A DNA stretch of 64,000 nucleotides from Escherichia coli (GTDB lineage Bacteria; Pseudomonadota; Gammaproteobacteria; Enterobacterales; Enterobacteriaceae): NCBI RefSeq assembly GCF_016026235.1, contig NZ_CP065613.1; one strand, written 5' to 3'. The number at the start of each line of letters is the position of its first letter. The first letter of the stretch is position 1. This document shows positions 3,564 to 64,000 of the stretch, one piece after another. Below the pieces are notes generated by a model, which worked only from the letters and a program-made list of their open reading frames with translations, ran no database searches and was not told where the DNA came from. A program made the position numbers and the translations under genes.

Positions 3564-3638
<75 letters not shown>

Positions 3639-3641
3639 ATA

Positions 3642-3717
<76 letters not shown>

Positions 3718-3719
3718 GC

Positions 3720-3796
3720 TGGCCCACCACCGAGGACTCGAACCTCGCACCGTCAACTTAGAAGGTTGATGCTCTATCCGGATGAGCTAGTGGTGG
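3720..3796 (-). tRNA. tRNA-Arg (anticodon UCU, reads AGA), phage-type
   Basis: Cloverleaf with anticodon loop CUUCUAA, T-arm CGAGGUUCGAGUCCUCG, encoded CCA; 5' base appears to be C, which is unusual. Confidence 0.7.
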
Positions 3797-3797
3797 T

Positions 3798-3874
3798 TGG
3801 TGGCCCTTGCTGGACTTGAACCAGCGACCTGGCGATTATGAGTCGCTCGCTCTGACCAACTGAGCTAAAGGGCC
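3798..3874 (-). tRNA. tRNA-Ile2-like (anticodon CAU, lysidine-type; could be scored as Met)
   Basis: GGCCCUUUAGCUCAGUUGGUCAGAGCGAGCGACUCAUAAUCGCCAGGUCGCUGGUUCAAGUCCAGCAAGGGCCACCA, close to E. coli ileX-type tRNA. Confidence 0.75.
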
Positions 3875-8181: not shown

Positions 8182-8401
8182 AACCACCTCCCAGGCGTTT
8201 AAACATTTTTCCGGACTGAAACGCCACCAGCGGATAACTCAGGGTATGAGTACGTCCCTGAACCTGGCAGACAACCTTCTGGCTTTCTGTATTGACCAGG
8301 CAAACCCGCAGAACGTGACCGTTGCTGGTGGTGAACCACTGCCCCACTCGGGGGCAACGGTTGTATCGGTGATACAGGGAATTAACGACGCGGCGAATCA
8401 T
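8168..8401 (-). CDS. hypothetical small protein
   Basis: 77-aa ORF with SD GGAGG, start/stop overlaps with both neighbours. Confidence 0.4.
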   Translation of the reverse strand: MIRRVVNSLYHRYNRCPRVGQWFTTSNGHVLRVCLVNTESQKVVCQVQGRTHTLSYPLVAFQSGKMFKRLGGGYASV

Positions 8402-8760
8402 GGGCGCACCTCCCATTGATTACGACGGAAAACAGTGTGATTCAGGTTGGTTTCAGCCTCATGGAATGCTTCAATACAGCTCTCGTAGTACCGCATTGTG
8501 CGCAGACTTAACCCAAGCTGAAGCATCATCAGCCCATCAAGGGTGATGTAATAACCACGCAGGGAATCGCCATAGATGTGATAAGTGCCAGGTATGAAAT
8601 TGCGGGTAAAAAATTCGCGCGAGCAGTTCAGGTACTCGATTTTGTCGACGATATTCTGGTGCATGCGCTTGAAGTGGCAGGCAACATGCAAAGAAAAAAT
8701 AACGGCCTTGCCGTTGACGGTCTCAATTTTGAGGAATGAGTGGGTTGGGACTGTAGCCAT
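8398..8760 (-). CDS. hypothetical protein
   Basis: 120-aa ORF from ATG with SD GGAGG at 8760; track ORF extends upstream through low-complexity sequence, judged non-coding. Confidence 0.45.
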   Translation of the reverse strand: MATVPTHSFLKIETVNGKAVIFSLHVACHFKRMHQNIVDKIEYLNCSREFFTRNFIPGTYHIYGDSLRGYYITLDGLMMLQLGLSLRTMRYYESCIEAFHEAETNLNHTVFRRNQWEVRP

Positions 8761-9053
8761 GATGGCAGCCTCCGTTGACTGTGGAAAACTTCCACCACCG
8801 GAGGTGCAAATCTCGCTGGTGGCGGACTGAACAGGGTTTGCACTACCGGCGTCAACGGAGACCGGCGAGCCTTTCGGCTCCCCTGCCCAGCCCACCATAA
8901 TTCTGGCGTGCGTGAGCGCGGACGATAAAAAAGACGCTGGCGCGTCGTATATCGCCGTTGACAATTCCGGGGTGCAAATCCCGGCACCCGCTTTATAAGG
9001 TGCAGAGACAGTGTAACGTCCCGAAATTGCAGAATCAATATCTTGGAGAACAA

Positions 9054-9878
9054 TCATGCAGCACCCGCCAGTTCTTTATCGTGAGTAAATTCGCCATTCC
9101 AGTTTCTCTTCATGGGTAATGCACCTCTAAGATACTGGCGATAAATCCAGACCGCCCCTTTCTGGAGAAGAACTGGTGTGTACGAATAAAACCCTTCTTC
9201 ATAACCTGAATCGATATAGTGGTGACGTTCGGTCAGATACAGATCTCGGGCATATGCCTTTACACGCCATGCGGGGCTTCGCGATTCAGGACGCTCGTCA
9301 TAAAGCCAGTTGTGAGCCTCCAGAAATGCTGTGATGCGCTGAACATTTACTCCATTAAGTTGCTTGCAGAACTGAACCGGTGTCATGCCAGGCTGGAATA
9401 AATTTTCCAGATGTTCGATGTATTGGGCCTGACGATGAACGTAACTAATTGCTCTGTTTTTAGCCTCATATTCGTCCGCCCAGGCACGGGCAGCAGCAGC
9501 CGGATCGCTAAAATCTGGTAGGGATGCCATTGTGGTAAGACAGTAATTCCCCGTTTTACGAATTGAGGGAATTACCTCCGATGTAATCCACCGTTTAAAA
9601 CGTCTTGCCTGTTTTTTTCGACTTTTGATAATCAGCGCATAGAGCCCGGATTCATTGACCAGCAAAGGCTTACGTCCCGAACCTAAGTAATCCTTATATT
9701 CGGTTTTATCTTCATCATCGATGGACTGAAGGGAGATAGCAGTATTTGTCAGCCCCAGCGCGTTACATATATCCACGGCAAAAAACCATGGTGTTGAATC
9801 AATGACCACACTACGAACTGATGACAACAATTCACCAGTGCTTGATTTAAAATCGAAAACTTTGATATTGTTTTTCAC
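9054..9878 (-). CDS. Bro-N / KilA-C (ANT) family antirepressor
   Basis: Bro-N motif KVFDFKSSTGELLSSVRSVVIDSTPWFFAVDICNALGL; GTG start at 9878 preceded by GGAGA; C-terminal antirepressor-like domain. Confidence 0.75.
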   Translation of the reverse strand: MKNNIKVFDFKSSTGELLSSVRSVVIDSTPWFFAVDICNALGLTNTAISLQSIDDEDKTEYKDYLGSGRKPLLVNESGLYALIIKSRKKQARRFKRWITSEVIPSIRKTGNYCLTTMASLPDFSDPAAAARAWADEYEAKNRAISYVHRQAQYIEHLENLFQPGMTPVQFCKQLNGVNVQRITAFLEAHNWLYDERPESRSPAWRVKAYARDLYLTERHHYIDSGYEEGFYSYTPVLLQKGAVWIYRQYLRGALPMKRNWNGEFTHDKELAGAA

Positions 9879-61742: not shown

Positions 61743-62993
61743 TTACGCCAGACCAATAAAGAACCCGGCAATGGTCGCGCTCATCAGGTTGGAAAGCGTT
61801 GCTGCTGCCAGCGCCCGTAAACCAAGCTGAGCGATTTCCGGTGCACGTTTTGGCGAAATAGCCGAAAATGCGCCAACGACAACACCGATAGAACCAAAGT
61901 TAGCAAAACCACAAAGCGCAAAGGAGATAATCGCAATGGTTTTCACTTCCAGCGTGCCGCCCGTTTGCAGGTATGGGGAGAAACTCAGGTAAGCGACGAA
62001 TTCGTTAATCGCCAGTTTCTGCCCAATCAGGCTACCCGCAAGGTTGGCATCACTCCAGTCCACACCCATGATCCACGCCAGCGGTGCCAGCACATAGCCA
62101 AAAATACTTTCCAGAGAAGCATTGGTAAAACCAAACCAACCGCCAATTCCGCCGATAATGCCATTAATCAGCGCAATAATTGCGACAAACGCCATTACCA
62201 CCGTCGCCACACCGGCGGCGATTTTCAACCCGGTCATCGCACCGCTCGCCGCCGCTTCGATAAAGCTTTTTGGCGGCGTTTCACTGAACGACAGATTTTC
62301 AAATGTGACCTGCGAAGGCTCGGTTGCCGGACTAAGAATACGTGCAAACAAAATACCGCCGGGGATCGCCATCAGCGATGCCGCCAACAGGTAGTCAATT
62401 GGTACGCCCATTCCGGCATAACCAATCATCATCGAACCCGCAATGGACGCCATCCCGCTACAAATTGCGGTAAACAACTCGTTGCGATTCATGCGATCGA
62501 TAAACGGTTTAACGATCGCCGGGATCTCATTTTGCCCGAGGAAAATAGTAGTAACCGCAACAAAAGATTCGATTTTGCTGATGTTGAGGGCTTTCTGGAA
62601 AATGCTGCCAAGGATGCGAATCAGCAGCCCCATCACGCCAATGTAGTACAGCAGACTGATGAGCGCAGTGACGAAGATAATCGCCGGGAGTACGCGAAAG
62701 GCGAAGATAAAGCCTGCGCCATCAAACAGGACATCCATTTTCGGCCCAACCAGCGAACCAAAAATGAAGGCGCTACCGGCATCACTGTAAGACATCACTT
62801 TATGAACACCTAATGCCGCCTGTTCTACTGCCCATTTTCCCGGCGGAAAATAGAGCATGATGCCACCAATAGCGATTTGCAGCAGCAGTGCGGCTCCAAC
62901 CGTGCGCAAACTGATGCTCTTTTTATTTACCGACAACAGAAATGCTATTGCCAGTAACACCACCATCCCCACAACACTTCTCATTATATCCAT
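61743..62993 (-). CDS. psuT: putative pseudouridine/nucleoside transporter (NupC family)
   Basis: 416 aa, about 88% identical to NupX. Confidence 0.9.
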   Translation of the reverse strand: MDIMRSVVGMVVLLAIAFLLSVNKKSISLRTVGAALLLQIAIGGIMLYFPPGKWAVEQAALGVHKVMSYSDAGSAFIFGSLVGPKMDVLFDGAGFIFAFRVLPAIIFVTALISLLYYIGVMGLLIRILGSIFQKALNISKIESFVAVTTIFLGQNEIPAIVKPFIDRMNRNELFTAICSGMASIAGSMMIGYAGMGVPIDYLLAASLMAIPGGILFARILSPATEPSQVTFENLSFSETPPKSFIEAAASGAMTGLKIAAGVATVVMAFVAIIALINGIIGGIGGWFGFTNASLESIFGYVLAPLAWIMGVDWSDANLAGSLIGQKLAINEFVAYLSFSPYLQTGGTLEVKTIAIISFALCGFANFGSIGVVVGAFSAISPKRAPEIAQLGLRALAAATLSNLMSATIAGFFIGLA

Positions 62994-63086: not shown

Positions 63087-64000
63087 TTAACCCGCGAGAC
63101 GCTGATATTCTTTGGCAATTTCGCTCGCCAGAATGGCGTTGTTGAACACCAGCTGGATGTTGGATTTCAGGCTGTCACCGCCGGTCAGCTCAGCAACGCG
63201 CGCCAGCAGGAATGGCGTACTTTCTTTACCAATAACACCCTGCGCTTCAGCTTCAGCTACCGCCTGATCGCCGCATTGATAGTGTGTTCCGGCATAGCAA
63301 ACTGTTCCGGGATCGGGTTCGCTACCACGAGGCCACCGTTCAGCCCGCTTTGCCATTTCACCGCCATTGCACGGGCAATTTCGCTGGCGCTGTCGAGACG
63401 AATGCTGACGTCAAACGGGCTGGTACGGCAGAAAAACGCAGGCAGCGCTTTAGTCTGATAGCCAATTAACGGCACACCGAAGGTTTCTAAATACTCAGTG
63501 GTTAATCCTAAATCGAGAATAGATTTCGCCCCGGCACAAACAACGGTGACATTAGTATTTGCCAGTTCTTGCAAATCGGCAGAAATATCGAAGGTATGTT
63601 CCGCCCCGCGATGAACACCACCAATTCCCCCGGTGGCAAATACTTTAATTCCGGCAAGCGCCGCAATAATCATCGTTGAAGCCACAGTGGTTGCGCCATT
63701 TTTTCCGGCGGCAACAACAAAAGGTAAATCGCGACGACTAACTTTGGTCACGTTATGCCCTTCACGACCCAGTAATTCAATTTCTTCTTTGCTTAAACCC
63801 ACTTTCATCACGCCACCAATAATGGCGATAGTGGCAGGTACTGCGCCCTGTTTACGAATAGTTTCTTCAACTTCAATTGCGGTCTGGGCATTTTGTGGGA
63901 ACGGCATCCCGTGAGAAATAATGGTCGATTCCAGCGCCACAACCGGTTTTTTGTTTTTTAAAGCGTCCTGCACTTCCGGGGAAATTTGTAATAATTCAGG
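63087..64000 (-). pseudogene. psuG: pseudouridine-5'-phosphate glycosidase, frameshifted; 5' end beyond window
   Basis: Homology split between two overlapping frames (track ORFs 63257-63973 and 63087-63356). Confidence 0.6.

What the first reader, a model, noticed from the sequence alone, without database searches (positions are those of the whole stretch)
63087..63973. psuG appears frameshifted
PsuG-like sequence is split between two frames: one reads …PEQFAMPEHTINAAIRR then stops at 63257, while the expected C-terminal part (DQAVAEAEAQGVIGKESTPFLLARVAELTGGD…) continues in another frame to 63087. The switch lies at about 63263 to 63271, where the minus strand has a single GATC; loss of one copy of a tandem GATCGATC (a 4-bp deletion) would explain it, but I infer the intact sequence from memory. 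This is either a genuine pseudogene or a sequencing error.
Basis: partly seen in the sequence, partly recalled or inferred. Interest (0 to 1): 0.5.

Follow-up and report, generated by a model that had tools for sequence, protein, structure and literature searches.

The report
Frameshifted psuG pseudogene, recurrent 4-bp deletion
This E. coli strain's gene for the pseudouridine-breakdown enzyme PsuG is truly broken by loss of one copy of a 4-base tandem repeat; this is an ordinary inherited pseudogene, not a sequencing error, and the same deletion has arisen independently at least three times in the species.

Summary
On the minus strand, psuG (63087 to the window end; the start codon is inferred to lie 21 nt beyond it) reads in one frame to ...TINAAI-RR-TAG (stop at 63259-63257). 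The native C-terminus, DQAVAEAEAQ...EYQRLAG, continues in another frame to 63087. Intact PsuG is 312 aa (PDB 4GIJ). The product here has 252 native residues plus RR. It lacks residues 253-312, including T270, L274 and N289, whose Arabidopsis counterparts are needed for catalysis, so it should be inactive.

It is not a sequencing error. The exact 254-aa product is called on at least 24 contigs from separate assemblies. None of 5,426 complete RefSeq E. coli genomes has the junction. The deletion sits on three psuG haplotypes that differ by 8-11 SNPs, and each has an intact twin with no SNP differences. That indicates recurrent slipped-strand deletion at the longest period-4 tract in the gene. 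psuK and psuT remain intact. This is an ordinary strain- or lineage-specific pseudogene of low interest.

The parts
63257..64000 (-). The 5' part of psuG in its native frame, cut by the window end; the ATG is about 21 nt beyond 64000. It encodes native residues 8-252, then Arg-Arg and a premature TAG at 63259-63257.
   Evidence: It is identical to reference PsuG up to I252. The full truncated product of 254 aa carries Pfam PF04227 Indigoidine_A.
63266..63270 (-). Deletion junction: the one remaining CGATC of the ancestral CGATCGATC tract (gene nt 752-760). Four bases are lost. Their exact placement within 63265-63271 is ambiguous because of the repeat.
   Evidence: Alignments. The tract is the longest period-4 repeat in psuG, and GATCGATC is its own reverse complement.
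63087..63269 (-). The 3' part of psuG, now out of frame and untranslated. It encodes native residues 253-312 (D253...G312) and the original TAA stop at 63089-63087.
   Evidence: frame B translation. It is identical to the C-terminus of 4GIJ. It contains T270, L274 and N289, which map to At T289, L293 and N308.
61743..62993 (-). psuT, the nucleoside transporter gene downstream in the same operon. It is intact at 416 aa.
   Evidence: The exact protein is widespread in E. coli. It is annotated psuT in relatives.

Best explanation
psuG in this E. coli genome is a genuine loss-of-function pseudogene. One unit of the tandem, palindromic tetranucleotide tract CGATCGATC was lost, most likely by slipped-strand mispairing during replication. 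The reading frame shifts after Ile252 and translation stops two codons later. The 254-aa product lacks the C-terminal 60 residues. By comparison with the Arabidopsis enzyme, this segment includes lid helix alpha12 and ceiling helix alpha13 of the active site, so the strain should be unable to cleave pseudouridine-5'-phosphate. Shown here: the lesion, its presence in many independent assemblies, and its occurrence on three haplotypes. Inferred: the slippage mechanism, enzyme inactivity, and the neutrality of the loss. In the window's lineage the allele is inherited. It is shared with about 22 other assemblies, some of which have since gained further changes. In two other E. coli backgrounds the same deletion arose independently.
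For: The 4-bp gap is seen against every reference. Reference PsuG is 312 aa. The exact 254-aa product is on at least 24 contigs in 32 collection blocks, with NCBI accessions CAD7363943.1, SQP93824.1 and STM06773.1 and Logan runs ERR1082468 and SRR13627083. All of L015-L018 carry the deleted junction and all 14 intact-PsuG loci (L001-L014) carry the wild-type one; L023 carries the deletion too, shown by its gap-free alignment to the window. One search pairs each deleted allele with an intact allele at zero SNP differences: window/L015 with FDAARGOS_943, L017 with TB06052, and L018 with strain 720632. The three haplotypes differ from each other by 8, 11 and 11 SNPs. Flanks of L017 and L018 are only about 97% identical to the window. 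CGATCGATC is the longest period-4 tract in the gene. The neighbouring longest period-6 tract also shows one-unit deletions in about 25 genomes. The Ec/At alignment is gapless at offset 19. In the Arabidopsis enzyme T289A and L293G are inactive and N308A keeps 0.52% of catalytic efficiency, and helices alpha11-alpha13 form the lid and ceiling of the active site (PMC10761123). Later changes within the window's lineage, namely a 6-bp deletion in L016 and two substitutions confined to psuG in L023, show the allele has been inherited for some time.
Against: No reads could be inspected for the window's own assembly. L015 is 100% identical to the window and may be the same assembly, so it does not count as independent. 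The junction is absent from all 5,426 complete RefSeq E. coli genomes, from GTDB species representatives and from JGI metagenomes, so the allele is rare. Short-patch recombination could in principle move the deletion between haplotypes: the nearest flanking markers allow a tract under about 105 bp for L018 and under about 276 bp for L017. Inactivity of the truncated protein is inferred from mutants of a homologue, not measured.
Confidence: 0.93

Rival explanations
1. Sequencing or assembly error: the strain really has an intact GATCGATC, and the 4-bp gap is an artefact, for example of basecalling at Dam-methylated GATC sites.
For: The site holds two adjacent Dam sites. No complete RefSeq E. 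coli genome has the junction. The one locus fully identical to the window (L015) could be the same assembly.
Against: The same junction and the same 254-aa product are found in assemblies from different projects, including Logan re-assemblies of raw runs ERR1082468 and SRR13627083 and NCBI assemblies GCA_901482675.2 and GCA_030000655.1. These lie on diverged backgrounds. The tract is not a homopolymer. Lineage members carry further private changes, so they are distinct isolates.
Confidence: 0.02
2. Single origin spread by recombination: the deletion arose once and was moved onto other psuG haplotypes by short gene-conversion patches, rather than arising three times.
For: E. coli recombines often. 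Flanks around psuG are mosaic: identity varies gene by gene. Marker spacing allows a patch under about 105-276 bp.
Against: Each recipient haplotype is SNP-identical to an intact twin over the whole 914 bases, so any patch would have to be very short and carry no marker, and this would have to happen twice. The site is the best slippage substrate of its period in the gene, and the adjacent hexanucleotide tract also shows scattered one-unit deletions.
Confidence: 0.04
3. The gene still functions, either by ribosomal frameshifting across the lesion or as two polypeptides that assemble.
For: Frame B is open for 154 nt upstream of the premature stop, and an ATG at 63356 could start an 89-aa peptide. 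Rare Arg codons AGG-CGG precede the stop.
Against: There is no X_XXY_YYZ heptamer and no homopolymer of 5 or more in the overlap zone; all four heptamers in the ORF lie far upstream at 63704-63962. Restoring the frame needs a -1 or +2 shift, whereas rare-codon pausing favours +1 (established knowledge). Every other E. coli examined encodes a single 312-aa chain. The 89-aa peptide would begin with 29 unrelated residues.
Confidence: 0.01

Closest known systems
E. coli PsuG (YeiN), pseudouridine-5'-phosphate glycosidase, PDB 4GIJ/4GIK/4GIL/4GIM; Pfam PF04227 Indigoidine_A
   Same: The window sequence is this gene. It sits in the same operon context, with psuT, yeiL, rihB and nupX in the window and fruA and psuK upstream in relatives. 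The DNA is over 99% identical, and the protein is identical to that of strain 720632 through residue 252 and again in the shifted frame for residues 253-312.
   Different: A 4-bp deletion at gene nt 752-760 truncates the product to 254 aa. The C-terminal lid and ceiling helices, with T270, L274 and N289, are not translated.
Tetranucleotide tandem-repeat frameshift hot spot of lacI (CTGG repeats; Farabaugh et al. 1978, recalled from memory)
   Same: Gain or loss of one 4-base unit of a short tandem repeat by slipped-strand mispairing, recurring independently at the same site. The loss is seen here on three haplotypes at the longest period-4 tract in the gene.
   Different: Only 2.25 repeat units are present here against three in lacI. 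The recurrence is seen in natural isolates, not in a mutational spectrum, and the rate has not been measured. The tract here is also an 8-bp palindrome containing two Dam sites.
Other natural disruptions of the psuKGT operon in E. coli
   Same: Independent loss-of-function lesions occur in the same non-essential salvage operon. These are an IS5-family insertion in psuG plus a psuK internal stop in FDAARGOS_943, IS1A or ISKpn26 in or beside psuK in three genomes, and a psuK internal stop in TB06052. psuG and psuT are listed among variable 'extended-core' genes in PMC12595684.
   Different: Those are IS insertions or nonsense changes at other positions. Here psuK and psuT stay intact and only psuG is hit.

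Membership tests
PsuG / Indigoidine_A (PF04227) pseudouridine-5'-phosphate glycosidase gene | Sequence homology over the full length to characterised PsuG | tested here: met
   The intact allele of the same locus (strain 720632, identical in protein to the window's two frames) matches 4GIJ at E = 1.8e-198 over residues 1-312. The window DNA is over 99% identical to annotated psuG. PF04227 is on record for the truncated product.
PsuG / Indigoidine_A (PF04227) pseudouridine-5'-phosphate glycosidase gene | Conserved operon context psuK-psuG-psuT | tested here: met
   psuT lies directly downstream in the window. psuK lies directly upstream in L015, which is identical to the window over the 6.7 kb they share, and in all relatives.
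Functional PsuG enzyme | A single uninterrupted chain of about 312 aa that includes the catalytic N-terminal residues (E31, K166) and the C-terminal lid and ceiling residues (T270, L274, N289) | tested here: not met
   The frame breaks after I252 and stops at 63259-63257. T270, L274 and N289 lie in the untranslated part. The mapping to At T289/L293/N308 comes from a gapless alignment, and the mutant data come from PMC10761123.
Functional PsuG enzyme | Pseudouridine-5'-phosphate glycosidase activity | not testable with these tools
   This needs an enzyme assay or a growth test.
Genuine pseudogene (as opposed to an artefact) | The lesion is reproduced in independently sequenced genomes | tested here: met
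   At least 24 contigs in 32 blocks from NCBI and Logan, one more Logan run, and DNA junctions verified for L015-L018 and for L023 by gap-free alignment to the window.
Programmed ribosomal frameshift gene | A slippery motif at the shift site, with the split arrangement conserved across relatives | tested here: not met
   There is no slippery heptamer or homopolymer in the 154-nt overlap zone. The split arrangement is absent from 5,426 complete genomes.
Contingency (phase-variable) locus | A long, hypermutable simple-sequence repeat with frequent on/off variants among close relatives | tested here: not met
   There are only 2.25 units of a 4-nt repeat. No expansion alleles were seen. The deletion is rare: 0 of 5,426 complete genomes.

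The most novel reading that the evidence does not exclude
Loss of PsuG may be selected rather than neutral. The same 4-bp deletion has arisen at least three times, and IS and nonsense lesions occur elsewhere in psuK and psuG. Together these could reflect convergent, adaptive inactivation of pseudouridine catabolism in certain host-associated E. coli lineages, with the Dam-site palindrome GATCGATC acting as a preferred mutational target.
Probability: 0.05. Interest if true: 0.4.

Novelty: already known. Interest (0 to 1): 0.12.

Why it matters
It matters little beyond annotation. The locus should be labelled a frameshifted psuG pseudogene, not the truncated 'indigoidine synthase A like protein' that some records call it. 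[quoted passage not shown] Because psuK is intact, it could accumulate pseudouridine-5'-phosphate when given pseudouridine. The recurrence of the same deletion on three backgrounds is a small natural example of slipped-strand mutation at a very short tandem repeat. It is also a caution that an identical indel in different strains need not mean common descent.

Tried and rejected
1. I looked for the deleted junction in complete RefSeq E. coli genomes using a 40-mer whose flanks are too short to seed on wild type. There was no match. No positive control exists in that collection, but a similar 44-mer for the 6-bp deletion did work.
2. I scanned GTDB species-representative genomes and JGI metagenomes for the junction. 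Both gave zero hits, so the source organism could not be named that way.
3. The exact PsuT protein was tried as a lineage marker, but it is too widespread (3,642 blocks).
4. I looked up the truncated product on other protein backgrounds. The E79D version is not on record. The A220V version exists but proved to be the window's own haplotype with two later substitutions, not a fourth independent event.
5. I tried to settle whether the 4-bp or the 6-bp deletion recurred within the window's lineage (window: 4-bp only; L016: both; FDAARGOS_943: 6-bp only). The four flanking SNPs shared by L016 and FDAARGOS_943 are ancestral states, so this stays unresolved.
6. A literature search for the accession numbers and strain names found nothing useful. 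A search for psuG with pseudogene found only a pan-genome list.
7. Recoding was considered and rejected.
8. The first was repeated correctly, and the second was replaced.

Full report
**What is in the sequence.** Read on the minus strand, the last 914 bases of the window (64000 to 63087) are the gene psuG (formerly yeiN), which encodes pseudouridine-5'-phosphate glycosidase. One frame runs from the window edge to ...PEQFAMPEHTINAAI-RR and stops at TAG 63259-63257. A second frame carries DQAVAEAEAQGVIGKESTPFLLARVAELTGGDSLKSNIQLVFNNAILASEIAKEYQRLAG and ends at TAA 63089-63087. The ORF finder's start at 63973 is only the first GTG it met. The frame is open to the window end, and in relatives the ATG lies 21 nt further on (MSELKIS then PELLQISPEV...).

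**The lesion.** I aligned the region with intact psuG from four complete genomes, including a K-12 strain. The references read GCGGCGATCGATCAGG and the window reads GCGGCGATCAGG, so exactly four bases are missing from the tract CGATCGATC. The remaining CGATC is at 63270-63266. Reference PsuG is 312 residues and ends ...EYQRLAG, as in the crystal structures 4GIJ, 4GIK, 4GIL and 4GIM.

**Real mutation or error.**
- I rebuilt the full truncated product (254 aa; the seven N-terminal residues were taken from relatives) and looked it up by exact identity. It is called on at least 24 contigs in 32 blocks of the assembly collection. These include NCBI assemblies GCA_001907535.1, GCA_901482675.2 and GCA_030000655.1 and a Logan assembly of run ERR1082468. 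GenBank proteins CAD7363943.1, SQP93824.1 and STM06773.1 are named 'indigoidine synthase A like protein [Escherichia coli]'.
- All four fetched loci carry the deleted junction at the DNA level, and all 14 loci with intact PsuG (L001-L014) carry the wild-type junction.
- L015 is 100% identical to the window over 6.7 kb and may be the same genome. The others differ from it and from each other.
- A further run, SRR13627083, carries the same deletion on the window's haplotype plus two extra substitutions. Both lie inside psuG (63363 C>T and 63272 G>A), and there are none in 2.8 kb of flank.
- The tract is not a homopolymer.
- Taken together, a sequencing artefact is very unlikely. I could not inspect reads.

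**How common it is.** A 40-base query centred on the junction, whose flanks are too short to seed on wild-type DNA, found nothing in 5,426 complete RefSeq E. coli genomes. The 81-base query gave at best 81/85 identity, which is the 4-base gap alone. The junction is also absent from GTDB species representatives and JGI metagenomes. The allele is rare.

**One origin or several.** This is the only part of the finding that is not routine.

| Haplotype | Alleles with the 4-bp deletion | Intact allele with zero SNP differences |
|---|---|---|
| A | window, L015 | FDAARGOS_943 |
| B | L017 | TB06052 |
| C | L018 | strain 720632 |

- Over the 914 bases, the haplotypes differ by 8 SNPs (A-B), 11 SNPs (A-C) and 11 SNPs (B-C).
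- The flanks of L017 and L018 are only about 97% identical to the window.
- Haplotype C is nearly identical to a locus type found in several hundred complete genomes, all of them intact.
- The simplest reading is three independent deletions. A single origin moved by gene conversion would need marker-free patches under about 105 bp for L018 and under about 276 bp for L017.
- The slippage model fits. CGATCGATC is the longest period-4 tract in psuG, and GATCGATC is its own reverse complement. The longest period-6 tract, AGCTGAAGCTGAAGC, lies 8 nt downstream and also shows one-unit deletions. That 6-bp deletion is in frame (AEAEAQ to AEAQ) and occurs in about 25 complete genomes of varied background, annotated as intact psuG.
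- Within lineage A, the window has the 4-bp deletion only, L016 has both deletions, and FDAARGOS_943 has the 6-bp deletion only. One of the two must therefore have recurred again. Flanking SNPs cannot say which, because the four sites shared by L016 and FDAARGOS_943 are ancestral states.

**Consequence for the protein.**
- The product keeps residues 1-252, adds Arg-Arg and stops.
- The E. coli and Arabidopsis enzymes align without gaps at an offset of 19 (Ec 9-307 against At 28-326).
- The lost segment, Ec 253-312, therefore contains T270, L274 and N289, the counterparts of At T289, L293 and N308.
- In the Arabidopsis enzyme, T289A and L293G are inactive and N308A retains 0.52% of catalytic efficiency. 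[quoted passage not shown]
- The catalytic E31 and K166 are retained, but the truncated chain is expected to be inactive. This is an inference, not a measurement.
- Recoding is not supported. The 154-nt zone where both frames are open has no X_XXY_YYZ heptamer and no homopolymer run of 5 or more, and rescue would need a -1 or +2 shift.

**Context.**
- psuT, directly downstream, is intact at 416 aa. psuK is an intact 313-aa ORF in all five fetched carriers of the deletion.
- No promoter-like site lies between psuG and psuT, and no terminator-like site lies on the gene's strand. psuT is therefore probably co-transcribed. The extra 170 nt of untranslated RNA could cause some polarity, which is inference only.
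- PsuK and PsuG are the two enzymes of pseudouridine degradation in E. coli (abstract of PMC9247573). The predicted phenotype is loss of pseudouridine salvage, possibly with build-up of the phosphorylated intermediate.
- Other lesions in this operon turned up in passing. FDAARGOS_943 has an IS5-family insertion in psuG and an internal stop in psuK. Three genomes have IS1A or ISKpn26 in or beside psuK. TB06052 has an internal stop in psuK.
- A pan-genome study lists psuG and psuT among variable 'extended-core' genes (PMC12595684). The operon looks dispensable and decays sporadically.

**Comparison with what is known.** This is psuG itself, carrying a classical slipped-strand frameshift of the kind first described at the CTGG repeats of lacI (my recollection, not checked here). 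It fails the tests for a programmed frameshift and for a contingency locus. I found no paper describing this allele, but the sequences are already public.

**Verdict.** The lesion is a genuine, heritable frameshift pseudogene of a well-characterised, non-essential salvage gene. It is of low interest (0.12), and the only mildly notable feature is recurrence at a 9-bp tandem palindrome.

Noticed in passing
window 1-20540: A lambdoid prophage lies next to mlrA (yehV). It carries a lysis cassette, Q antiterminator, replicative helicase, Rha regulators, excisionase and an intact integrase ORF (19253-20539, + strand). The same integrase is annotated 'frameshifted' in the close relative FDAARGOS_943. 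Relatives annotate mlrA with a non-ATG start directly after the integrase gene, so the prophage appears to replace the 5' end of mlrA.
   Followed up: partly
window 3564-3874 (-): The prophage carries a cluster of four tRNA genes: Gly-tcc, Thr-tgt, Arg-tct and a CAT-anticodon tRNA. ARAGORN calls the last one Met, while PGAP annotates the equivalent gene as tRNA-Ile in CFSAN029787.
   Followed up: no
window 8815-9003 (-): Rfam matches to C4 antisense RNA (80 bits) and isrK Hfq-binding RNA (62 bits) lie side by side within the prophage regulatory region.
   Followed up: no
window 30581-30661 (-): An Rfam Peptidase-S11 RNA motif (73 bits) lies directly upstream of the pbpG ORF (29644-30585, - strand).
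   Followed up: no
psuG gene nt 768-782; window 63243-63257 (-); L004 and L016: A 6-bp in-frame deletion of one AGCTGA unit (AEAEAQ to AEAQ) occurs in about 25 complete E. coli genomes, including O55:H7 strains, and is annotated as intact psuG. It also occurs in two close relatives of the window. With the 4-bp deletion it forms a four-gamete pattern: the window has the 4-bp deletion only, L016 has both, and FDAARGOS_943 has the 6-bp deletion only.
   Followed up: partly
L004 (FDAARGOS_943), L020 (TB06052), hits H127-H129: Other independent lesions occur in the psu operon. FDAARGOS_943 has an IS5-family insertion in psuG and a psuK internal stop. MSB1_9I and 23AR1101 have IS1A in or beside psuK, and CFS3292 has ISKpn26 there. 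TB06052 has a psuK internal stop.
   Followed up: partly
L016 (GCA_901482675.2) 2003-2940 and 8344-9819: This relative, which shares the 4-bp deletion, also has fruK split into two ORFs and an IS1 inserted in yeiL, suggesting wider gene decay in that isolate.
   Followed up: no
L023 (SRR13627083); window 63363 and 63272: This locus is the window's haplotype with two extra substitutions, both inside the psuG pseudogene (A220V and one synonymous change), and none in the 2.8 kb of flanking sequence. That fits relaxed constraint, but it is a single anecdote.
   Followed up: yes
window 60413, 60308 (rihB) and 58845, 58807 (nupX): Four derived substitutions are specific to the window/L015 clade; L023 shares the two rihB changes but does not extend to the nupX sites. 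Every other E. coli locus that covers each site has the other base. Their coding effect was not checked, and both ORFs are full length.
   Followed up: no
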